A DNA stretch of 20,000 bases from an uncultured virus (IMG/VR IMGVR_UViG_3300025030_000083). Lineage: Duplodnaviria > Heunggongvirae > Uroviricota > Caudoviricetes. The notes under the pieces are model-generated. The model was given only the letters and a program-made list of their open reading frames with translations. It was not told where the DNA came from and searched no databases. Below are positions 3 to 16,500 of this stretch, piece after piece. The position numbers were made by a program, and so were the translations under genes. Where the stretch lies: IMG/VR virus record IMGVR_UViG_3300025030_000083, positions 55,292 to 75,291 of that record; one strand, 5' to 3'. Each line of letters starts with the position of its first letter. Position 1 is the stretch's first letter.

Positions 3-1061
3 CGCCACTGCCGTCCAGAATACTTTCGAGCAGAGATGGATAAATTAATGCCATATAGGGGAAAGAAAATAGATGGCCCAGAATTAAATAAAGCAATCAG
101 TCTACAAATTCCCATCCGTCTAGGAATTCGATTTGAAGATTTTCTTCCTATCGAAGCTCAAAAAGGAATCAGTTTGAATTTTATGCAATATTTATCTGAT
201 ATTGCATATCCCATAATGGTGAACACTAAGTCTGCGTTAATCGGAAGAGAAGATTACGTTAGGGCACTAGCAGATAATAAAGGTGGTGCTGCTGTTCATA
301 TGACGGCGATATCTTCAGATGGTATTCTAAATAAAAAGTTGGAACCTGGCGCCCCGTCTTTTGAGAAACGCATGCTTGCTGTAAAAGCCCTTACGGATGC
401 AGGGGTTAGGGTTGTCGCAAGGATCGAGCCATTCATGGTCTTTGTGAACGATGATCCTTATTATGTTCAAAAATGGATACAGGGAGTCAGGGAAGCAGGG
501 ATTAAACATATCACTTTTGATACATATAGCTACTCCGCTTCTGCCCCTGGAGTTGAACGCCAAATGGAAATGGAAGGAATAGATTTTCGTAGAATGTTTT
601 TGCTAATGTCAGATAGTCAGTGGTTGGGTTCTTTGATTTTAGGAGAATTTATGAAAATGATGAAATCCGAGGGATTTTCAACTTCCACCTTCGATTTCGG
701 GAATTCCCCGATCAATAATGATGAAATCTGCTGCTCCGTATCAGATGTTTACTTACCCCTGGGTGGAGGGTTCTCCTACGGGAACAACATGATTGCTGCT
801 AGGTTTGTTCGGGATAACGGACCCCACCCAGTAACGTGGGGGAAATATAACGCTTTCGTAGAGGAACGTGGGGGGTGGTTATCAGAAACCTTAATGCAAG
901 AAGTAAAGAATTCGTGGAATCTTGGGGGACATCAAGCATATCAGGTGGATTGGGCCCAGGGAATTGAACCTTATGGAAGAGATCGAGAAGGAAATATAGT
1001 TTGGAGATATATTGAAAGTTCTGACTTCCGCTTAGAAATGTTAGAAAATTTGGTCCGGTGA
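3..1061 (+). CDS. Radical SAM protein, SplB/Rv2578c-like (5' end truncated by the window edge)
   Basis: The frame is open from position 3 (RHCRPEYFRAEM...). Motifs EDFLPIE, PIMVNTKS..I.RED and LEPGAPSFEKRMLAVKALTDAGVRVVARIEP match SPL-like radical SAM proteins. The CxxxCxxC motif is not visible and is presumably upstream. Confidence 0.75.
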   Translation, partial: RHCRPEYFRAEMDKLMPYRGKKIDGPELNKAISLQIPIRLGIRFEDFLPIEAQKGISLNFMQYLSDIAYPIMVNTKSALIGREDYVRALADNKGGAAVHMTAISSDGILNKKLEPGAPSFEKRMLAVKALTDAGVRVVARIEPFMVFVNDDPYYVQKWIQGVREAGIKHITFDTYSYSASAPGVERQMEMEGIDFRRMFLLMSDSQWLGSLILGEFMKMMKSEGFSTSTFDFGNSPINNDEICCSVSDVYLPLGGGFSYGNNMIAARFVRDNGPHPVTWGKYNAFVEERGGWLSETLMQEVKNSWNLGGHQAYQVDWAQGIEPYGRDREGNIVWRYIESSDFRLEMLENLVR

Positions 1062-8197: not shown

Positions 8198-11100
8198 ATG
8201 CGAGGGTTCTTTGATATACCAACTCCTGCTAAAGCAGCCCAACCAAAAACCCCCCGAGGGGCCGTAGGTTGTGACGCATGTGGGCTGAAAAATCGTACCC
8301 TATCCCCAAATATTCCCCCCACTGGTGAAGGAAAACTTAAAACCTTCATATTGGGGGAAGCTAGTGGTGAGCGAGAAGATCAACTGAACAATCAATTTAT
8401 AGGAGAAACTGGCCATTTTCTTAGAAAATGCTTTAGGATTATGGGGTACGATCTAGATAGAGATTTCAGAAAAACTAATGCCGTAGCGTGTTTTGTTTAT
8501 CATCAAGTTCCTATATTTACTATAGATGGGTATAAACCTGTATCTAAAGTTAAGGTGGGGGATTTAGTATTAACCCATAAAGGAAGATTTAGAAAGGTAA
8601 TATCTAGAATTCAAGATCTTCCCAAGCACCTTAAAAGAATTACTGAAGAAGTTTACAAAATTAAAGTGGGGAGGATCAATTCTCCTTATAAAAATAGAAG
8701 TTTGAAAGAATTTGTTGTTACCTCTTCACATAGATTTTTATCTAAAATAGACAATAAAGAAAATTGGGTTTATGCACGTCAATTAAATAAAGGAGATAGA
8801 ATAATAGCCATAGGAGAAAAATGTATAATTTGTGGGGGTATTTTTTTTAAAACTAATTCTTATGGGGAAAATATTTGTTCTTTAATCTGCGAAAGTAAAT
8901 ACTTAGAGGATAAATATGGAGAAAAACTTAGGGAGAAAGCCCATGAAAAAGTAAGAAGATCGGCTAAACTGGGCGTTTGGGGGAAGATGACGGGGGGGAA
9001 AGTAACTAAGGAAGCTAAGCTAAAAGGCAGAATAAAATGGGCCAAAATTAAAGAATCTGAAAATAAATTATCTAGTATATCTCCTATCACAATAGGATTT
9101 GGAGAGGGGTCTTTAGCAAATTATTTATCCGATAAAAAAATACAATTCATTTCTCAATTTGCCATTGAAACATTAAATTATGATTTCTTTTTGCCAAAGT
9201 ATAATTTGCTAGTGGAAGTAGATAATCCGGATAGGAACGGACAAAAATCAGTTAAAAATGATCAAACGAAAAAAAACATACTAGCTAAAAATTATAATTA
9301 TGAATTACTCCGAGTTTCCTCTAAAAATCCTATTTCCCCAATAGAAAGATTAATAAAGAATCATAATCAAGAATATCAATTCACCGAAGTAGAAATAGTT
9401 TCTATAGAAAAAATTCCTATAGGAAAAAGAATGTCTTTAACTTGCATAGAAGTAGAAGAGGACAATAGTTTTATAGCAAATAGAGTAATTCATCATAATT
9501 GCCGGCCAACCAACGAGAAGGGGAGCAACCGAACTCCGACTACACGGGAAATCAAAGCTTGCGAACCTAACTGGCGAGCAGCGATACAACAATTTCAACC
9601 GAAGTATATACTACTTTTTGGCGCAAAAGCAGTAGAGGCGTTTTTCATGAATAGGACTCAACCTATTTCAACAAATTTATCTATTGGGAGATGGAGAAAA
9701 CTTTGCATTCCTGATGTTCAAACGAAGGCTTGGGTTATCCCACTATACCATCCCTCTTTCGTTATCAGAAATCCTGACGCAGAGAACATTTTCAAATTAG
9801 ACCTCCAATGGGCAATGGAACAAATAACTTCAAATTTACCAGAAATAGAAGAAATTGATTATTCCCAAAAGATAAAATGTCTAACCAATACAGATGAAAT
9901 TTTAGATATTCTCAAAACGATTAAAGAACAAAAACCAACGATAGCATTTGATTATGAAACTACTGGCCTCCGTCCCTACTATCCCGGCCACTCTATTGTG
10001 TCTACGGCTGTCGCTATCTACGGGGAGGACATAGCCTATGCCTGGCCCTACTCCTACCCCGGAGCGTGGCAATCAGGACAGTTAGAAGCGTTGAATAAGG
10101 CATGGCGAGGGGTACTCTCCGACCCAGAAATATTAAAAGTAGCCCAGAATATTCAGATGGAGCATCCGTGGAGTAAAATCATAATTGGAGAAGAGCCAAA
10201 AGGATGGTATTGGGATACAATGGTTTGTTCTCATATCGTAGATGAACGAGCAGGATTTACAGGGCTAGATTTTCAAACGTTTATAAATTGGGGGTATGAA
10301 TACGGAGGGGATATTTCTAAATTCAAAAAGGCCCTTCCGGGAACTAAATTTAATACTATGCAGAAGTGCCCATTAAATGAGCTATTGAAATATAACGGAT
10401 TAGATGCTTATTTCACGATGAGATTGGCGGAACGGCAATGGGATTTCATGGATAAGGGGAATAAGGAATCCCTCGCCGCTTCTAAAGCCTACGATTTATT
10501 TCATAAAGGAGTTCTTGCTTTTTCTGATATGGAAATGGAAGGGATCTCAGTAAACGTAGAATATTATCAAGATACCCAAATAAAATTAGAAAAAAGACTA
10601 GATTTCCTAGAAAAACAATTACTTCGCTCTCCAGAAGCAAAATTATTTAAATCTAAAACAGGAAGAGAAATAAAATTAACTTCTTCTGATGATATGAAAA
10701 AACTTTTGTTTGAATTCTTAGGAGTAAAATCCATCAAAAAAACGGAGGGTGGTGGGGACTCCGTAGATAAAGACGTTGTGGAAAGTTTGGATATACCCTT
10801 CGCAAAAGATTTGGTTAAAAAAAGAAAATTGGATAAATTGAAGACTACTTATATTGATGGAATTTTAGGTTTACAAGTCAATAAAAAATTACATCCTAAT
10901 TCTAATTTACATTTAGTAAGAACAGGCAGAAGTTCTATGGACTCCCCCAATATGCAAAACATTCCCAAAAGAGATAAAGAATCTATGACTATGGTAAGAA
11001 ATGGAATAATTCCCTCTCCAGGAAACCTATTAGCTGAGGCTGATTATGGGGGGCATGAAGTCGGCATTTTAGCTTGCTATTCCAAAGACCCTGTATTAAT

Positions 11101-11722
11101 GAAAGAACGTATAGATGGAGCGGATATTCATCAAGAGTGGGCAGATTTTTTACAACTAAAGGGATTCGATGCAAAAATAATGAGATTCGATGCCAAGAAC
11201 GCCATGGTTTTTGCCCTCTTTTACGGCAGTTATTATAAAAATATTCATGCAGATTTAATTAGCAGAGGATACCATGATCTACCTATAATGAGAGTTCAAA
11301 AAGCAGAGCGAGAATTTTGGCTAAAATATCGTGGGATTAAAAAATTTCAAGATGGACTAATAAAATCATACCAACAAAACGGATATGTTGAAATGATGCA
11401 TGGCTTCCGACGAAGGGGATTTTTAACCAAAAATGAAATTATAAATTCCGTAATTCAAGGCACAGCATTCCACGTACTTTTAGAATCAATAATTAAAATA
11501 AATGAAATATCAAAAGAAGAAAAATGGAAATCTAAATTAATAGGACAAATCCATGATTCTATAATTATAGATACTAACCCAAACGAAATAGATCATGTAA
11601 TAGAAACCACTAAAAAAGTGATGACTAAAGATGTTTTAGCGAACAATCCTTGGATCATTGTCCCATTAATATCTGATATAAAAATAGGAAAAATTAACCA
11701 ATCCTGGGATTTTTTAGTATGA
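8198..11722 (+). CDS. polA: Family-4 uracil-DNA glycosylase (intein-interrupted) fused to 3'-5' exonuclease and family A DNA polymerase
   Basis: UDG: CDACGL, GEASG, QFIGETG, TNAVA|CRP, EIKAC, YHPS. Exonuclease: FDYETTGL, DTM, YNGLDA. Polymerase: TGRSS..PNMQNIP, motif A ADYGGHE, motif B RFDAKNAMVFALFYG, NSVIQGTA, motif C QIHDSI. Confidence 0.93.
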   Translation: MRGFFDIPTPAKAAQPKTPRGAVGCDACGLKNRTLSPNIPPTGEGKLKTFILGEASGEREDQLNNQFIGETGHFLRKCFRIMGYDLDRDFRKTNAVACFVYHQVPIFTIDGYKPVSKVKVGDLVLTHKGRFRKVISRIQDLPKHLKRITEEVYKIKVGRINSPYKNRSLKEFVVTSSHRFLSKIDNKENWVYARQLNKGDRIIAIGEKCIICGGIFFKTNSYGENICSLICESKYLEDKYGEKLREKAHEKVRRSAKLGVWGKMTGGKVTKEAKLKGRIKWAKIKESENKLSSISPITIGFGEGSLANYLSDKKIQFISQFAIETLNYDFFLPKYNLLVEVDNPDRNGQKSVKNDQTKKNILAKNYNYELLRVSSKNPISPIERLIKNHNQEYQFTEVEIVSIEKIPIGKRMSLTCIEVEEDNSFIANRVIHHNCRPTNEKGSNRTPTTREIKACEPNWRAAIQQFQPKYILLFGAKAVEAFFMNRTQPISTNLSIGRWRKLCIPDVQTKAWVIPLYHPSFVIRNPDAENIFKLDLQWAMEQITSNLPEIEEIDYSQKIKCLTNTDEILDILKTIKEQKPTIAFDYETTGLRPYYPGHSIVSTAVAIYGEDIAYAWPYSYPGAWQSGQLEALNKAWRGVLSDPEILKVAQNIQMEHPWSKIIIGEEPKGWYWDTMVCSHIVDERAGFTGLDFQTFINWGYEYGGDISKFKKALPGTKFNTMQKCPLNELLKYNGLDAYFTMRLAERQWDFMDKGNKESLAASKAYDLFHKGVLAFSDMEMEGISVNVEYYQDTQIKLEKRLDFLEKQLLRSPEAKLFKSKTGREIKLTSSDDMKKLLFEFLGVKSIKKTEGGGDSVDKDVVESLDIPFAKDLVKKRKLDKLKTTYIDGILGLQVNKKLHPNSNLHLVRTGRSSMDSPNMQNIPKRDKESMTMVRNGIIPSPGNLLAEADYGGHEVGILACYSKDPVLMKERIDGADIHQEWADFLQLKGFDAKIMRFDAKNAMVFALFYGSYYKNIHADLISRGYHDLPIMRVQKAEREFWLKYRGIKKFQDGLIKSYQQNGYVEMMHGFRRRGFLTKNEIINSVIQGTAFHVLLESIIKINEISKEEKWKSKLIGQIHDSIIIDTNPNEIDHVIETTKKVMTKDVLANNPWIIVPLISDIKIGKINQSWDFLV
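8489..9499 (+). mobile_element. Intein (337 aa) with Zn-finger and Vsr/DUF559-like endonuclease
   Basis: Starts CFVYHQVPIFTIDGYKPVSKVKVGDLVLTHKGR, has block B TSSHRF and ends IEVEEDNSFIANRVIHHN|C. Removal restores TNAVACRP. Internal CIICG...CSLIC and QF....YDFFLPKYNLLVEVD; AT-rich. Confidence 0.93.
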
Positions 11723-12913: not shown

Positions 12914-13414
12914 ATGAGCGACGAATTAGAAATTTCAGAAATTGAAAAAGACTTAGAAATTGATAAAGACAACCTCGATATTGCATGCCTCGACCAGCCA
13001 AGACGTTTCCTAAAGTGGTCAATAGAATACTCAGAAGCCATCCGAGTCAGAGACGAAGCAAAAAGGAGGGCAATGGTAATTAAATCTAATATAAATATGG
13101 ATGTACGTGCTCGCCCTGCGGAGTATAAAATAGATAAAGTAACGGAGGGTTCCATAAATGCAGCTTTAGAATCCAACGAGGAGGTGAATAAAGCCGAGAA
13201 AGAAATATCAGATGCACAATATGCGGTGAATATTTATTCCGCCGCAAAAGAAGCACTAGATCAACGCCGGTCCATGTTGGAGAGATTGGTGGCTCTGTAC
13301 ATCTCTGGTTACTTTTCTCAAGTTCGGTTGGATACCACAGAGGTAGGAAAATTAGCAGATGACGCCACCGCCCACCAACGATCTCTCCTCAAGGCCAGAA
13401 AGAGGACCGAATGA
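12914..13414 (+). CDS. uvsY: UvsY-like recombination mediator
   Basis: DLEIDKDNLD....QP..F..W plus KVTEGSI and coiled-coil helices; near SSB and RecA. Confidence 0.65.
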   Translation: MSDELEISEIEKDLEIDKDNLDIACLDQPRRFLKWSIEYSEAIRVRDEAKRRAMVIKSNINMDVRARPAEYKIDKVTEGSINAALESNEEVNKAEKEISDAQYAVNIYSAAKEALDQRRSMLERLVALYISGYFSQVRLDTTEVGKLADDATAHQRSLLKARKRTE

Positions 13415-13629
13415 ATGATTTAAAACTGTGGGAACAAATATTAATAGCTGTAGTTGGAATACCCTTATCACTAATGGCTATATATATGGTGGTTAGGGTA
13501 ATAGCCACAGCGTGTATGAACAGTTGGTGGGACACTAAAATTAGTCACACCAAAAAACTCCTTGACGTGTTCAAGGATAACCCCCAAAAGGGACCGGAGG
13601 GCAAAAGTGACGCTCCGCCACATAAATGA
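13411..13629 (+). CDS. Small membrane protein whose C-terminus is supplied by the IS right end
   Basis: TM segment ILIAVVGIPLSLMAIYMVVRVIA; the last residues (SDAPPHK) are read from IS sequence starting at 13607. Confidence 0.7.
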   Translation: MNDLKLWEQILIAVVGIPLSLMAIYMVVRVIATACMNSWWDTKISHTKKLLDVFKDNPQKGPEGKSDAPPHK

Positions 13630-13750
13630 GGCGGCTTCTAAGAACATGTTAGCTAACACTAACATTAAGTCCTTCAGGCTGCGTCCCAGCCTGTATACCA
13701 CGGGCGAGAATTACTCGCGCCGCCGCATGATCTCTGTGCGCACTATACCC
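13587..13750 (-). ncRNA. TnpB omegaRNA/reRNA (5' limit approximate), guide about UUUUGCCCUCCGGUCCCUUU
   Basis: This is the expected position over the tnpB 3' end and right end. Hairpins CAGGCTG/CAGCCTG (13675-13693) and CCGCC/GGCGG (13615-13634). The guide is the flank after TCAC. Confidence 0.65.
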
Positions 13751-14776
13751 ACAATCACAATCATGCCTCCGCTCACTCAAGGTTTTCTTTTTAACCTTGC
13801 CGCACTCAGGACATATCTGCGAAGTATAACGCGCACTCACCTCTTCGTATCGAAGACCGGCGCTTTCAGCCTTGTTCTTCAATATCATAAGGAAGCTAGC
13901 CCAGCCAGCATCCAACACCGCTCGTGCCAATCGGTGGTTCTTGACCATCCCTTGGACGTTCAAGCTCTCCACCACAAAAGCTCCGTAGCGATTGATCAAA
14001 TTCACCGCAATTTTATGATGAGCATCCTTTCGTACATTCGATATTTTCAAGTACAATTTGGAAACAATCCTTCGTTGTTTTTCTCTACTATTCGATCCTT
14101 TTTTCTTTCTACTCAAACTGCGTTGGGAGATTCGAAGTTTGCCAAGATTTGGCTTCATCGGTTGAAGAGGATAGATATGCTCTCCATCACTAGTAGTCAA
14201 GAAACTTTCCAACCCAACGTCAATACCAATAATAGGCTTACATGTAATTATTTGAGGCACCAGGGGGAATTTGCAAACCGCCGTCACATACCATTTATCC
14301 AATTCTCTTTTAATATTAATAGTTTTAACTGTACCTTCAATGAGGCGATGCAAATTGATTCGTACCAGTCCAATATGTTGAAGCCTCAGTTTATTACCTA
14401 TTATCCGGGCACCATCTCCGCCACCAGATGGAAACGTTATCGAATGAAATTGATTTCTTGCTTTGAATCTCGGGTAGCCCGGCTTTCCGCCAGATTTAAC
14501 ACGGCGAAAGAACGCTTTGAAAGCCTTATCCAAATTGCGCATTGTTGCTTGAGCAGAGGAAAAATTGATTCTAGCATAGTATGGGTTTATCTTTCGATCA
14601 AGGGTAAATTGGGCCGATTGTTCCACATAATTAACGCCATGTTTATTTGTTTCATAAGATTCCTTTCGCCACCTCAAACAGGCATTGTAAAGTCTTCTGT
14701 GGGTTTCAAGGGATGTTTCAAGTTCCCTAGTTTGATTCACATTTGGTTCAAGTCGATATTTGAAAGCTTTGAACAT
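13649..14776 (-). CDS. tnpB: TnpB RNA-guided endonuclease
   Basis: KAFKYRLEP, GYPRFK, RuvC-I GIDVG, RuvC-II VESL, Zn finger CPECG...CDCG, RuvC-III HRD. Confidence 0.95.
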   Translation of the reverse strand: MFKAFKYRLEPNVNQTRELETSLETHRRLYNACLRWRKESYETNKHGVNYVEQSAQFTLDRKINPYYARINFSSAQATMRNLDKAFKAFFRRVKSGGKPGYPRFKARNQFHSITFPSGGGDGARIIGNKLRLQHIGLVRINLHRLIEGTVKTINIKRELDKWYVTAVCKFPLVPQIITCKPIIGIDVGLESFLTTSDGEHIYPLQPMKPNLGKLRISQRSLSRKKKGSNSREKQRRIVSKLYLKISNVRKDAHHKIAVNLINRYGAFVVESLNVQGMVKNHRLARAVLDAGWASFLMILKNKAESAGLRYEEVSARYTSQICPECGKVKKKTLSERRHDCDCGYSAHRDHAAARVILARGIQAGTQPEGLNVSVS

Positions 14777-15172
14777 CTACTTTCCCTTTTGCGAGTCTAT
14801 ATACATTCGTATTGTTACTCCCAAAACTTGCCCTACAGTTCCAGCATAATAACTACGACTCCAAAGAGTAGGCAATCGAGAACGCAACGAAGAAAACTCC
14901 CGACGCAATATTCGACTAGTGAAACCCTTCAGTCGATTTACAATTTCAGCAATCCCTTGACGAGGGTCAAATTCTATAAATATATGGACATAATCTGGAT
15001 TTATATCCAAAGAGTAAATTACCATTTCCAATTCTTTTGTCTTGGTATAAAGCAATATCCTAAGCCTCTTTTCAATATCCTCTACAAGCACAGGGCGGCG
15101 GTATTTGGTGCACCATATCAAATGCAATTTAAGATTAAAAATTGCCTTAACATTTCGAACATATCTTGCCAT
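14777..15172 (-). CDS. tnpA: IS200-type Y1 transposase TnpA, HUH motif mutated
   Basis: HLIWCTKYRRPVL, PDYVHIF (canonical PDHVH), LKGFTSR, LWSRSYY, YIDSQ. ATG at 15172 is preferred over TTG 15208. Confidence 0.9.
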   Translation of the reverse strand: MARYVRNVKAIFNLKLHLIWCTKYRRPVLVEDIEKRLRILLYTKTKELEMVIYSLDINPDYVHIFIEFDPRQGIAEIVNRLKGFTSRILRREFSSLRSRLPTLWSRSYYAGTVGQVLGVTIRMYIDSQKGK

Positions 15173-15179
15173 GTAAATT

Positions 15180-15208
15180 ATTATAAGTTCGGCGAGTATA
15201 TAAGTCAA
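15180..15208 (-). promoter_or_regulatory. Near-consensus sigma70 promoter for tnpA/tnpB, probably leaderless
   Basis: TTGACT-17 nt-TATAAT, then 7 nt to the tnpA ATG with no Shine-Dalgarno sequence. Confidence 0.75.
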
Positions 15209-15291
15209 GTTAATCGAAAGGAGGGAGTTTCCTCTGCCACCTAAAGGCAGCAGTTACTAATTTAATAAAATAAAAGAAGGAGGAAAAAGAA

Positions 15292-16500
15292 ATGGCCACG
15301 CTTGACAGACGTGCGGCGATGAAAGAATCTCTGGCAAAGAAAACCCAAGAGTCATACGAAAAGCGGGATGACTCTGGGCAGTTTAAAAACATTTTCAAAG
15401 ATGAATACGTTAGCAAACTTTGGAAATGTGGGGAGGGGGAACATCTTATCGATATTATTCCCTTCCTTGCTGGAGACCATGATCCTAATACCAAGCCTGG
15501 GGAACCCAATTATGTATTGATTCTTTGGGTTCATTATCAGGTAGGGGTAAATCAAGATGCTTATGTTTGCCCCGCTCGCAATTATAATAAGTCCTGCCCC
15601 ATTTGCGAATATCGTGAAGAGGTTCGCCGGCAGGAGGATTATGATGAGGATCTGGTAAAGGAACTCACCCCCAAACGTCGGAGTATCTACAATATCCTGT
15701 GCTACGATAATGATAAGGAAGAGAACAAGGGGGTTCAGATCTTCGATGCCGCCCACTGGTTTATGGAGAAGCATATTGCACCTTTGGCTAAGACCCCCGT
15801 TCGGGGGGCTGGAAAATCCACTGATATGTACGTGGCATTCTCAGACCCAGATACAGGGAAATCCATCTCCTTTACTCGTAAGGGAACCAAGAGGAATTCG
15901 GAATTTCTAGCCCATAAGTTTGTGGACAGAAATTACCAAATTCCTGATGAAGTTTTGGATGCGGCTTTCATTTTGGACGATTGCGTCAACTATTCTTCTT
16001 ATGATGAAATTAATCTGGCTTTTCAAGGAGGGGGAGGGGATGTAGCTCCCCCAACAGAGGAATCCCCAGCACCCCAACCGACAGCGGCTCCCGCAGAATC
16101 CCGACTTCGTACCAGAGCAACTCCTGCTCCTGCTGCGGAACCTCCGATACCTGCCCCGGCTGTTAATCCAACCCCCACCCCCCGTCAACGCCCCGCCGCT
16201 ACTCCAGTAACGGCTGGTGCCCAGATCTGTCCTGTTGGGGGAGTATTTGGGGCAGATTGTGAAAAGTATAACGAGTGCGCTACTTGCCCCATTTGGGATG
16301 ACTGCTCGGCTGAGAAGGATAAGATTGATGCGGCTGGCGCAGAGACTTCTGCACCCTCTGCTACTCGTCCTACTCCTGCAGCCCCGGCAACTCCTAGACC
16401 AACTCCTAGACCTGCGGCTCCTGCAGCAGCGGCTCCGGTAGCAACCACTGCGGCTCCTGCCACTGCAGGACCCAGACGTGGTTTAAGACCAAGAGGGTAA
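15292..16500 (+). CDS. Single-stranded DNA-binding protein (T4 gp32-like) with Pro/Ala linkers and an extra Cys-rich domain
   Basis: GEHLIDIIP, VHY, YVCP....KSCPICE, YNI, GVQIF, DPDTGKSISFTRKG; strong RBS AAGGAGG. Confidence 0.78.
   Translation: MATLDRRAAMKESLAKKTQESYEKRDDSGQFKNIFKDEYVSKLWKCGEGEHLIDIIPFLAGDHDPNTKPGEPNYVLILWVHYQVGVNQDAYVCPARNYNKSCPICEYREEVRRQEDYDEDLVKELTPKRRSIYNILCYDNDKEENKGVQIFDAAHWFMEKHIAPLAKTPVRGAGKSTDMYVAFSDPDTGKSISFTRKGTKRNSEFLAHKFVDRNYQIPDEVLDAAFILDDCVNYSSYDEINLAFQGGGGDVAPPTEESPAPQPTAAPAESRLRTRATPAPAAEPPIPAPAVNPTPTPRQRPAATPVTAGAQICPVGGVFGADCEKYNECATCPIWDDCSAEKDKIDAAGAETSAPSATRPTPAAPATPRPTPRPAAPAAAAPVATTAAPATAGPRRGLRPRG

What the first reader, a model, noticed from the sequence alone, without database searches (positions are those of the whole stretch)
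13562..15244. The whole IS200/IS605 element is one open reading frame on its antisense strand, in the direction of the phage operon
Seen: a stop-free + strand frame of 560 codons (532 from ATG 13646) runs across the right-end hairpin and ends at a TAA in the left-end hairpin loop. It is codon-for-codon antisense to both tnpB and tnpA, so none of roughly 45-50 Leu and roughly 30 Ser codons is TTA, CTA or TCA. Neighbouring phage genes use TTA heavily. Inference: the open frame may let ribosomes cross the element and prevent transcriptional polarity on the downstream SSB/exonuclease/recA genes, making insertion into an essential operon tolerable. It could instead encode a real overlapping product. 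Shadow ORFs opposite tnpB do occur, so codon bias of the donor organism is the null hypothesis.
Basis: partly seen in the sequence, partly recalled or inferred. Interest (0 to 1): 0.7.

Follow-up and report, generated by a model that had tools for sequence, protein, structure and literature searches.

The report
Backward transposon that ribosomes can cross
A jumping gene sits backwards between a phage gene's ribosome-binding site and its start codon, and like its whole lineage it avoids every codon that would read as a stop on the other strand, most likely so that ribosomes can translate across it and the operon keeps working.

Summary
The + strand frame 13562..15244 has no stop (560 codons) and is codon-for-codon antisense to tnpB and tnpA. 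None of 47 Leu and 34 Ser codons is TTA, CTA or TCA, although 33% of other degenerate codons end in A. P(no stop) is 4e-18 to 9e-9 under three nulls.

The open frame is a lineage trait, not a donor codon-bias relic. In a TnpB tree the window lies in a clade of 35 rows, 33 of them open, with GC3 from 0.28 to 0.78. All its tnpA-bearing rows join tnpA and tnpB in one frame.

Two tests found no selection on the antisense protein's sequence.

Empty-site phages place the element at 13607..15291, exactly between the gp32 ribosome-binding site and the gp32 ATG. The right-end terminal GTG takes the place of that ATG, in frame with the open frame. A new AAGGAGG at the left end serves the displaced ATG.

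Clade members lie antisense to Pfam-identified neighbour genes (13 flanks of 14, against 10 of 27 for stop-containing relatives).

Best reading: a translational bridge that prevents polarity. Translation itself is not shown.

I found no paper describing this. This scan noted similar cases before on other DNA.

The parts
13607..15291 (-). Complete IS200/IS605-type element (1685 bp), with tnpA and tnpB on the - strand
   Evidence: In 7 of 10 related phage loci compared, the two flanks abut with no element (alignments). The right-end boundary ...TCAC| is conserved in L117, L089 and L128.
13607..15244 (+). Stop-free antisense frame read from the right-end terminal GTG: 545 codons plus TAA.
   Evidence: GTG 13607 is in frame and lies 5 nt after the phage GGAGGG.
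13649..14776 (-). tnpB (375 aa), an RNA-guided nuclease. The RuvC-type acidic residues are present at the aligned motifs.
   Evidence: Pfam. PDB match to ISDra2 TnpB 8bf8/8exa/8h1j, E 4e-45.
14777..15172 (-). tnpA (131 aa from ATG 15172), a Y1 HUH transposase. The first His of the HUH motif reads Tyr.
   Evidence: Pfam Y1_Tnp 3.5e-34. In the alignment, 23 of 23 other TnpA sequences have His at that site.
13607..13648 (-). Right end: hairpin 13615..13634 and terminal TCAC. This is the probable 3' part of the guide-RNA scaffold.
   Evidence: fold -6.6 kcal/mol, z -2.1.
15173..15291 (-). Left end: tnpA promoter 15208..15180 (TTGACT-17-TATAAT), hairpin 15234..15253, and about 27 extra nt next to the boundary
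   Evidence: Relatives have CCAT 13-16 nt before a GGGGAC-type motif; the window's left end lacks that motif.
15265..15291 (+). Left-end terminal segment, absent from relatives' left ends and from empty-site phages. It carries AAGGAGG (15277..15283) 8 nt before the gp32 ATG.
   Evidence: It occurs only once in the window.
13596..13606 (+). Original gp32 ribosome-binding site (GGAGGG plus a 5-nt spacer), now in front of the element's terminal GTG
   Evidence: Alignment with 5 empty-site phages.
15292..15295 (-). Target-adjacent motif CCAT on the element's top strand. It is the complement of ATGG, the gp32 start codon plus G.
   Evidence: CCAT ends 13-22 nt before the left-end motif in 21 of 26 clade loci, against 1, 0 and 0 in neighbouring bins.
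13587..13606 (-). Predicted guide segment of the TnpB guide RNA (the flank 3' of the right end)
   Evidence: Inferred from family knowledge. By my reading of the L201 sequence, the empty site carries CCAT followed by 11 matching nt.
13411..13629 (+). Small conserved phage membrane ORF. It used to overlap the gp32 start; its last codons and its TGA now lie inside the element's right end.
15292..16500 (+). gp32-like single-strand-binding protein gene, the first gene downstream of the element
   Evidence: Pfam gp32 4.8e-8. Homologs of 63-79% identity in empty-site phages.

Best explanation
The element belongs to an IS200/IS605 lineage whose target motif is CCAT, the complement of ATGG. This lineage keeps the codon-aligned reverse frame of the whole element free of stops.

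In this phage the element landed backwards between the gp32 Shine-Dalgarno and the gp32 ATG. Ribosomes that load on the old gp32 site now start at the element's right-end terminal GTG (13607). They translate 545 codons across tnpB and tnpA in antisense and stop at TAA 15242 in the left-end hairpin loop. That stop is 47 nt before the displaced gp32 ATG, which now has a new AAGGAGG supplied by the left-end terminal segment.

Continuous translation would keep the operon transcript covered by ribosomes. That would prevent Rho-type polarity and decay, melt the end hairpins, and deliver ribosomes close to gp32. The essential SSB, exonuclease and RecA genes would then still be expressed.

The amino-acid sequence of the 545-residue product is probably irrelevant.

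Shown: the anatomy, the codon avoidance, its conservation in the clade, and the orientation bias. Inferred: that the frame is translated and that this prevents polarity.
For: 1. Codon avoidance is frame-specific and far beyond chance.

2. It is a lineage trait.
- Clade of 35 tree rows, 33 open, GC3 0.28-0.78.
- 33 loci with an in-frame tnpA-tnpB junction (gap 0 or 3 nt): tnpB has 27 forbidden codons against 291.8 expected, tnpA has 4 against 128.1, and 32 of 33 are open.
- 37 loci with other junctions: 354 against 527.3 and 126 against 189.4, and 2 of 37 are open.
- Flanking genes run at an observed/expected ratio of 0.57-0.73.
- By the row labels of the tree, all 24 tnpA-bearing rows of the clade have a junction gap of 0 or 3, never the -4, -1, +4 or +5 seen elsewhere.

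3. Empty-site phages put the element exactly between the ribosome-binding site and the ATG. The terminal GTG is in frame, 5 nt after GGAGGG.

4. A new Shine-Dalgarno lies at the left-end terminus, absent from relatives and from empty sites.

5. Orientation by Pfam-identified neighbour genes.
- Clade: 13 antisense and 1 sense distinct flanks.
- 40 randomly picked stop-containing relatives: 10 antisense and 17 sense. Fisher p = 7e-4.
- By locus: 10:1 against 8:13, p = 0.008.

6. There is no + strand promoter-like site between the frame's stop and gp32, and no + strand terminator-like site inside the element.

7. The frame stayed open while the element drifted to the phage's AT-rich composition: GC3 is 0.40 against 0.66 in its nearest relative L117.

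8. Tests for selection on the antisense protein give the same values as in stop-containing relatives.
Against: - There is no expression data of any kind. No RNA run holding the stretch was listed.
- gp32 now has its own strong Shine-Dalgarno, so ribosome hand-over is not strictly needed. Unknown phage promoters cannot be excluded.
- The detailed geometry is not universal in the clade.
  - The terminal GTG is in frame and open through to the left end in only 14 of 35 distinct elements.
  - The ATG of the target motif opens an ORF of 70 or more codons in only about 9 of 28 loci.
  - A Shine-Dalgarno-like 4-mer precedes the right end in 10 of 33 loci, against 14 of 99 control windows (p = 0.065).
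  - The left-end non-coding part is only modestly depleted of stops: 9 of 27 elements have none, against 5 of 54 in the other two frames (p = 0.012).
- One clade member with a sense-oriented neighbour (L136) is still open.
- Clade members share ancestry, so the counts are not fully independent.
- Most clade members are GC3-rich, where open antisense frames come cheaply.
Confidence: 0.55

Rival explanations
1. The frame is kept open and translated for the element's own benefit. For example, ribosomes might stabilise a long antisense transcript that silences tnpA and tnpB, or protect it as proposed for narnavirus reverse ORFs. Expression of host genes downstream would play no part.
For: - Openness is a trait of the element lineage in many hosts and sites.
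- The product's sequence appears unconstrained, as reported for ambigrammatic narnaviruses (PMC8155312, abstract).
- The in-frame GTG and start-codon geometry is present in only part of the clade.
Against: - It does not predict the antisense orientation bias towards neighbour genes.
- It does not predict the precise placement between the ribosome-binding site and the ATG, or the new Shine-Dalgarno in front of gp32.
- No promoter-like site facing antisense was found at the right end, so the transcript must come from the host operon.
Confidence: 0.15
2. The frame encodes a real 532-545 aa protein with a function of its own, overprinted on both transposon genes.
For: - The long frame is conserved across a deep clade.
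- Gene callers have predicted it 11 times in public data, counting the window's own copy.
Against: - No Pfam family, and no source name beyond 'hypothetical protein'.
- Antisense replacements caused by tnpB-synonymous changes are no more conservative than in relatives whose antisense frame is full of stops: observed/expected BLOSUM 0.60/0.31 against 0.53/0.33.
- Doubly synonymous changes are not enriched: ratio 0.53 against 0.56.
- The start position and frame of the ORF's 5' end vary among clade members.
- Elements that lack tnpA, or carry another small gene in its place, keep the frame open across different content.
Confidence: 0.1
3. The frame is a relic of donor codon bias: a pseudo-ambigram inherited from a GC-rich ancestor with no selection on the antisense frame.
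For: - Most clade members have GC3 of 0.55-0.78, where TTA, CTA and TCA are rare anyway.
- Extreme GC3 is known to produce pseudo-ambigrams (PMC13262655, title and abstract only).
Against: - The window's element has GC3 of 0.33-0.40, 33% A-ending codons elsewhere, and 0 of 81 forbidden codons.
- Low-GC3 members keep the frame (L097, L163, L140, L006).
- Elements are about four-fold more depleted than their own flanking genes (0.13 against 0.57). That class was defined by openness itself. The unbiased split by junction type gives 0.09 against 0.67.
- The tnpA-tnpB junction is kept in frame through gap changes of 0 and 3 nt.
- The avoidance is specific to one frame.
Confidence: 0.04

Closest known systems
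Ambigrammatic narnaviruses (reverse ORF over the RdRp gene; 10.1101/761890, PMC8316113, PMC8155312; search listings and abstracts seen)
   Same: - A codon-aligned reverse frame spans nearly the whole forward coding sequence, made possible by avoiding the codons complementary to stops.
- The trait marks a clade.
- The reverse product appears not to be a conserved functional protein; the double-synonym logic of PMC8155312 was applied here.
- Translation, rather than the product, is thought to matter.
   Different: - Here it is a DNA transposon of bacteria and phages, not an RNA virus of eukaryotes.
- The reverse frame spans two genes and both element ends.
- It is read on the host operon's messenger from the host's own ribosome-binding site.
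- A concrete benefit can be proposed: downstream host genes stay expressed.
IS608 / ISDra2-type IS200/IS605 elements with TnpB and guide RNA (PMC10055086; passages read with 'find')
   Same: - Y1 TnpA plus TnpB.
- Sub-terminal hairpins, and insertion 3' of a short target motif without duplication.
- TnpB homologous to ISDra2 TnpB.
- The guide is expected from the flank beyond the right end.
   Different: - That paper reports no orientation bias for TnpB overall. This clade is strongly antisense to its neighbours.
- tnpA and tnpB are joined in frame.
- The whole reverse frame is open.
- The target motif CCAT mirrors a start codon.
IStrons (IS605-type element fused to a group I intron; PMC4227781, 10.1101/2023.11.20.567912; abstracts seen)
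   Same: An IS200/IS605-family element that carries a device making insertion into expressed genes harmless to the host.
   Different: IStrons sit in sense and remove themselves from the RNA by splicing. Here the element sits in antisense, stays in the RNA and would be translated through.
MIRU-type intercistronic repeats with small ORFs coupled to neighbouring genes (review PMC12548453; listing and abstract start only, MIRU detail recalled)
   Same: Inserted DNA in operons whose reading frame links the upstream and downstream cistrons by translational coupling.
   Different: MIRUs are 40-100 bp non-autonomous repeats in sense orientation. This is a 1.7-kb autonomous-type element read on its non-coding strand.

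Membership tests
IS200/IS605 insertion sequences | Y1 (HUH) transposase TnpA | tested here: met
   Pfam Y1_Tnp 3.5e-34. However, the first His of HUH is Tyr here, against His in 23 of 23 relatives. The gene is a family member but the enzyme is probably impaired (role of the His recalled).
IS200/IS605 insertion sequences | Accessory TnpB (OrfB) with a RuvC-like nuclease and zinc ribbon | tested here: met
   Pfam OrfB_IS605, Cas12f1-like TNB and HTH_OrfB_IS605. Match to ISDra2 TnpB structures, E 4e-45, with acidic residues present at the GxDxG, VE(S/D)LN and RD motifs. Which residues are catalytic is recalled.
IS200/IS605 insertion sequences | Sub-terminal hairpins instead of inverted repeats; insertion 3' of a short motif without target duplication | tested here: met
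   Hairpins at both ends. Empty-site phages show a clean insertion after CCAT with no duplication. CCAT lies at a fixed distance in 21 of 26 clade loci.
TnpB/OMEGA homing systems | Guide RNA from the right end with a guide matching the empty target next to the target motif | tested here: inconclusive
   The right end is conserved up to TCAC|. By my reading of the L201 sequence, the empty site carries CCAT plus 11 nt identical to the flank. No Rfam match, and no RNA data.
Genetic ambigrams (as defined for narnaviruses) | Codon-aligned reverse ORF over almost the whole forward coding sequence, through avoidance of TTA, CTA and TCA | tested here: met
Genetic ambigrams (as defined for narnaviruses) | Not explained by composition; conserved in a clade | tested here: met
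Genetic ambigrams (as defined for narnaviruses) | The reverse frame is translated | not testable with these tools
   No RNA or ribosome data. The run search listed no holder.
Translationally coupled operon inserts (MIRU-like) | The insert's ORF starts and ends at or near the neighbouring cistrons' stop and start | tested here: inconclusive
   In the window the start is at the old gp32 site, and the stop is 47 nt before gp32, which has its own Shine-Dalgarno. In the clade the stop lies within 5 nt of the junction ATG in 8 of 28 loci.

The most novel reading that the evidence does not exclude
A whole lineage of IS200/IS605 transposons is built as a translatable cassette.

- Its target motif CCAT mirrors ATGG, so it can land backwards between a gene's ribosome-binding site and its start codon.
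- Its right-end terminal GTG then serves as a substitute start.
- tnpA and tnpB are kept in one frame and purged of three codons, so ribosomes run through the entire element.
- Ribosomes are released next to the displaced start codon.

This would be a DNA-transposon counterpart of ambigrammatic RNA viruses. It would also be a third way, besides splicing by IStrons and inteins, for a selfish element to sit harmlessly inside essential operons.
Probability: 0.35. Interest if true: 0.85.

Novelty: new variant of a known kind. Interest (0 to 1): 0.74.

Why it matters
If the reading is right, TnpB/IS605 elements, the ancestors of Cas12 and now used as genome editors, include a lineage with a hidden design constraint on every Leu and Ser codon. 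That constraint would be an undescribed way for a selfish element to reduce its cost to the host.

It would explain how such elements persist inside essential phage operons. It would give a prokaryotic, genetically tractable model for genetic ambigrams, whose function in narnaviruses is still debated.

There are practical consequences too. Gene callers sometimes pick the false long ORF. Recoding tnpB for expression would destroy the frame.

The hypothesis is directly testable with one synonymous substitution.

Tried and rejected
- **RNA evidence.** The run search listed no RNA holder of the stretch.
- **Rfam.** No match in 13300..15500 at E up to 1.
- **Phage record collection.** blastn 'distant' found no match.
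- **Own genome.** One copy only.
- **Identical copies.** Seven other viral contigs carry the same element, but they are 100% identical including flanks (7 of 7). They add no variation and are not independent.
- **Orientation caller.** A purine-skew caller was tried first. It is only about 86% correct on tnpB itself. It gave clade 26 antisense against 13 sense and stop-containing relatives 37 against 61. I replaced it with Pfam-identified neighbours. In the clade set, 13 of 75 ORFs had hits. In the stop-containing set, 29 of 96 had hits, of which a DDE and a Y1 transposase were dropped.
- **Selection on the antisense protein.**
  - The first BLOSUM test looked positive (pooled 0.60 against 0.30).
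  - The same excess appears in relatives with stop-filled antisense frames, so I rejected it as a generic artefact.
  - The double-synonym test was likewise negative.
- **Is the start-codon geometry universal in the clade?** It is not.
- **Left-end boundary.** I considered a boundary near 15265, which would make the AAGGAGG segment phage DNA. I rejected it because homology to empty-site phages stops exactly at 13606 and resumes exactly at ATG 15292, and because CCAT is the clade's motif. Where the roughly 27 nt came from remains unknown.
- **Literature.** Searches for ambigrammatic+transposon, TnpB+antisense+open reading frame, IS605+antisense+overlapping gene, and TnpB+translational coupling returned no paper, judged from titles and abstract starts, that describes a stop-free reverse frame in IS200/IS605. 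A 2026 OMEGA review contains none of the words antisense, opposite strand, polar, stop codon, reading frame or orientation.
- **Not attempted.** Structure prediction, protein-atlas and complex tools were not used, because a fold of a probably meaningless product would not decide anything.
Full report
**1. What is there**

The window is the end of a 75-kb uncultured-virus contig with one copy of the element. Around it lies a phage replication module on the + strand:
- a family-A DNA polymerase with an intein and a UDG domain;
- a clamp-loader-like ATPase;
- UvsY;
- a 72-aa membrane ORF;
- then the element;
- then a gp32-like SSB, a 5'-3' exonuclease and RecA.

On the - strand the element encodes TnpB (13649..14776; OrfB_IS605, Cas12f-like TNB, HTH) and TnpA (14777..15172; Y1_Tnp). 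TnpB matches the solved ISDra2 TnpB at E 4e-45, with the acidic motif residues in place.

**2. The observation**

The + strand frame 13562..15244 is open for 560 codons and is the exact codon complement of both genes. The tnpA stop TAG is followed directly by the tnpB ATG in the same frame.

Over 506 sense codons, none of 47 Leu and 34 Ser codons is TTA, CTA or TCA. In all other degenerate families 134 of 412 codons end in A.

The phage's own genes use TTA for 129 of 355 Leu codons. Inside the element this frame has no stop for 545 codons, and the other two + frames have 30 and 42 stops.

P(no stop) is 4e-18 with phage codon usage and 4e-14 with the element's own third-position composition. 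It is 9e-9 after scaling the expectation by 0.67, the ratio seen in flanking genes. In 5000 resamplings the longest open run never exceeded 192 of 506 codons.

**3. Relatives**

I collected 80 genome, 34 viral and 80 metagenome loci that encode relatives of this TnpB. After removing copies of the window's own phage, 187 remained.

Seven viral contigs carry the same phage, 100% identical including flanks, so they add nothing. The nearest distinct elements are L117/L118 (78% TnpB identity), L089 (65%) and L128/L129 (63%).

For each locus I counted the three forbidden codons. I compared the count with an expectation drawn from the gene's own A-ending usage in other codon families.
- Loci where tnpA and tnpB are joined in frame with a gap of 0 or 3 nt (33 loci): 27 against 291.8 expected in tnpB, 4 against 128.1 in tnpA, and 32 of 33 have an antisense frame open over at least 90% of tnpB.
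- Loci with other junctions (37 loci): 354 against 527.3 and 126 against 189.4, and 2 of 37 are open.
- Flanking genes of the same loci run at 0.57-0.73 of this expectation. Stop-containing tnpB genes run at 0.72.

In a FastTree of 147 distinct TnpB sequences, the window sits in a clade of 35 rows. Of these, 33 are open, with GC3 from 0.28 to 0.78. This tree has SH-like support only, and the basal fork of the clade is weakly supported.

The open state also appears scattered elsewhere on the tree. It needs at least 22 changes of state. Shuffled labels need 46 on average, and none of 500 shuffles was as low.

Low-GC3 members keep the frame:
- the window: 0 against 18.1 expected;
- L097: 2 against 12.0;
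- L163: 3 against 12.3;
- L140: 1 against 9.8;
- L006: 0 against 8.6.

By the row labels of the tree, all 24 tnpA-bearing rows of the clade have a junction gap of 0 or 3 nt. The gap switches between 0 and 3 several times but never takes the -4, -1, +4 or +5 values common in other clades. A donor codon-bias relic does not explain these facts.

**4. Is the product a real protein?**

The product matches no Pfam family. In the 5.8-billion-protein collection the frame has been called as a gene 11 times, counting the window's own copy. None has a Pfam domain or a name beyond 'hypothetical protein'.

I ran two tests on close pairs of elements.

The first asks whether tnpB-synonymous differences cause unusually conservative changes in the antisense protein. 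They seemed to: 0.60 observed against 0.31 expected mean BLOSUM score, over 927 changes in 11 pairs. Relatives whose antisense frame is full of stops show the same excess: 0.53 against 0.33, over 1600 changes in 20 pairs. The excess is therefore generic.

The second uses the double-synonym logic applied to narnavirus ambigrams (PMC8155312, abstract). Doubly synonymous changes are not enriched: 97 of 756 against 667 of 2746 sites gives a ratio of 0.53. In the control set the ratio is 0.56.

The frame is thus kept open, but I see no selection on what it spells. The power of both tests is limited.

**5. Exact anatomy in this phage**

Related phages with gp32 of 63-79% identity lack the element. 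In 7 of 10 loci compared, the two flanks abut.

In those phages the membrane ORF overlaps the gp32 start, and the site reads GGAGGG, a 5-nt spacer, then ATGG. In the window, homology stops at 13606, after the spacer, and resumes at ATG 15292.

The right-end boundary ...TCAC| is conserved in L117, L089 and L128 and across the clade. The element is therefore 13607..15291.

On its own top strand it lies 3' of CCAT. CCAT ends 13-22 nt before the left-end GGGGAC-type motif in 21 of 26 clade loci. Neighbouring 10-nt bins hold 1, 0 and 0. The lineage's target motif is thus the complement of ATGG.

Read on the phage strand, the element begins with GTG (13607). This GTG stands exactly where the gp32 ATG used to stand behind its Shine-Dalgarno, and it is in the open frame. 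The frame ends at TAA 15242 in the left-end hairpin loop.

The last roughly 27 nt of the insert (about 15265..15291) are absent from relatives' left ends and from empty sites. They carry AAGGAGG 8 nt before the gp32 ATG and are unique in the window.

The membrane ORF now ends at a TGA 20 nt inside the element.

The best promoter-like site in the region is the tnpA promoter on the - strand (11 of 12 matches). There is no + strand promoter-like site between the frame's stop and gp32, and no + strand terminator-like site inside the element.

**6. State of the element**

The first His of the TnpA HUH motif is Tyr. All 23 other TnpA sequences aligned have His. The left end lacks the clade's GGGGAC-type motif.

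I infer that the element can no longer move by its own transposase and is fixed in this phage. The role of that His is recalled from IS608 work, not tested here. TnpB looks intact.

By my reading of the L201 sequence, the flank beyond the right end, which is the expected guide, matches that empty site for 11 nt after CCAT. TnpB-driven homing between co-infecting phages is therefore conceivable, as described for the family in PMC10055086 (abstract and passages).

The element's GC3 (0.40 in tnpB, 0.33 in tnpA) is far below that of its nearest relative (0.66). Many synonymous changes towards A and T have therefore accumulated, presumably in the AT-rich phage lineage, and none created an antisense stop. 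This points to selection for the open frame acting within the phage lineage.

**7. Orientation**

I took the longest ORFs next to each element and kept only those with a Pfam hit at E of 1e-6 or better.

| Set | Loci scanned | ORFs scanned | ORFs with hits | Antisense to tnpB | Sense |
|---|---|---|---|---|---|
| Clade | 28 | 75 | 13 | 12 | 1 |
| Stop-containing relatives (random pick) | 40 | 96 | 29 (27 kept) | 10 | 17 |

In the clade set, L123 and L126 share a site and count once. With the window's two flanks this gives 13 antisense and 1 sense. In the control set I dropped one DDE and one Y1 transposase.

Fisher p is 7e-4 by flank. By locus the counts are 10:1 against 8:13, p = 0.008. A published survey found no orientation bias for TnpB overall (PMC10055086, passage), so the bias is specific to this lineage.

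**8. How general is the start-codon geometry?**

It is only partly general.
- The terminal GTG is in frame and open through to the left end in 14 of 35 distinct elements. Four more are in frame but meet a stop earlier, and 17 are in other frames.
- The antisense stop lies within 5 nt of the junction ATG in 8 of 28 loci. In four of them it forms a TGATG overlap.
- The junction ATG opens an ORF of 70 or more codons in about 9 of 28 loci.
- A Shine-Dalgarno-like 4-mer precedes the right end in 10 of 33 loci. Control windows further out have 14 of 99 (p = 0.065), and the reverse complement has 1 of 33.
- The left-end non-coding part has no stop in the aligned frame in 9 of 27 elements, against 5 of 54 in the other two frames (p = 0.012).

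The stop-free frame and the antisense orientation are therefore lineage rules. Landing exactly at a start codon is a frequent but not obligatory case, and this window is a clean example of it.

**9. Explanation and rivals**

Best reading (0.55): the frame is a translational bridge. Ribosomes from the old gp32 site start at the terminal GTG, cross the element and stop just before gp32. This keeps the operon messenger translated, prevents Rho-type polarity and decay, opens the end hairpins and releases ribosomes near gp32.

Rivals:
- translation serving the element itself (0.15);
- a real overlapping protein (0.10);
- a codon-bias relic (0.04);
- something not thought of (the rest).

None of the translation steps is shown. 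No RNA run was listed.

**10. Comparison and novelty**

The closest analogue in kind is the ambigrammatic narnaviruses. The closest relatives in descent are ordinary IS608/ISDra2-type elements. The closest in purpose are IStrons, which make IS605-type insertions harmless by splicing, and MIRU-type coupled repeats.

My searches found no paper describing a stop-free reverse frame in IS200/IS605 or TnpB elements. Supplements were not examined.

This scan has noted similar stop-free reverse frames before, on other DNA. Those notes concern TnpB-only elements and other backward inserts in phages, and they are unchecked AI notes. They agree with this reading but are not independent evidence.

New here:
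- the two-gene element held in one frame;
- the CCAT motif at a fixed distance from the left-end motif;
- the terminal GTG standing in the start codon's place;
- the orientation test based on Pfam-identified neighbours;
- the two negative tests for a functional product;
- the signs that the copy is fixed in the phage.

Noticed in passing
window 8198..11722 (+): The family-A DNA polymerase ORF (1174 aa) also carries intein/Hint and uracil-DNA-glycosylase-type domains (Pfam). It is a second selfish insert in the same replication module.
   Followed up: no
window 14777..15172 (-), HUH motif: The first His of the TnpA HUH motif is Tyr, while 23 of 23 aligned relatives have His. The left end also lacks the clade's GGGGAC-type motif. 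The element is probably immobile although both ORFs are intact.
   Followed up: partly
L128 about 290..410; L129 (same element); perhaps L138 and L107: In place of tnpA, L128/L129 carry a short ORF that reads like a ribbon-helix-helix (Arc-type) protein by eye. It is joined to tnpB by the same TAG-ATG in-frame junction, and the antisense frame stays open across it. No family search was run on it.
   Followed up: no
L053, L096, L105 (outside the clade): Other low-GC3 TnpB genes have very few forbidden codons and nearly full-length open antisense frames: L053, GC3 0.40, 3 against 20.7 expected; L096, GC3 0.25, 3 against 18.2; L105, GC3 0.48, 3 against 18.1. The trait may have arisen more than once.
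   Followed up: no
window 13587..13606 against L201 2975..3003: The flank beyond the right end (the expected TnpB guide) matches the empty gp32-start site of a related phage for 11 nt after CCAT, by my reading of the L201 sequence. The element could act as a homing drive between co-infecting phages.
   Followed up: partly
window 13411..13629 (+): The conserved small membrane ORF upstream lost its original last codons, which overlapped the gp32 start. It now ends with residues and a TGA encoded by the element's right end.
   Followed up: partly
L117 about 100..135: The nearest relative has lost tnpA but keeps the left-end promoter. It also abuts CCAT, and an ATG-started frame reads away from it to the contig end (42 codons). 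The antisense stop lies 4 nt before that ATG.
   Followed up: partly
window 15180..15208 (-): The tnpA promoter-like site (TTGACT, 17 nt, TATAAT) ends 7 nt before the tnpA ATG, with no Shine-Dalgarno between them. This suggests a leaderless tnpA messenger.
   Followed up: no
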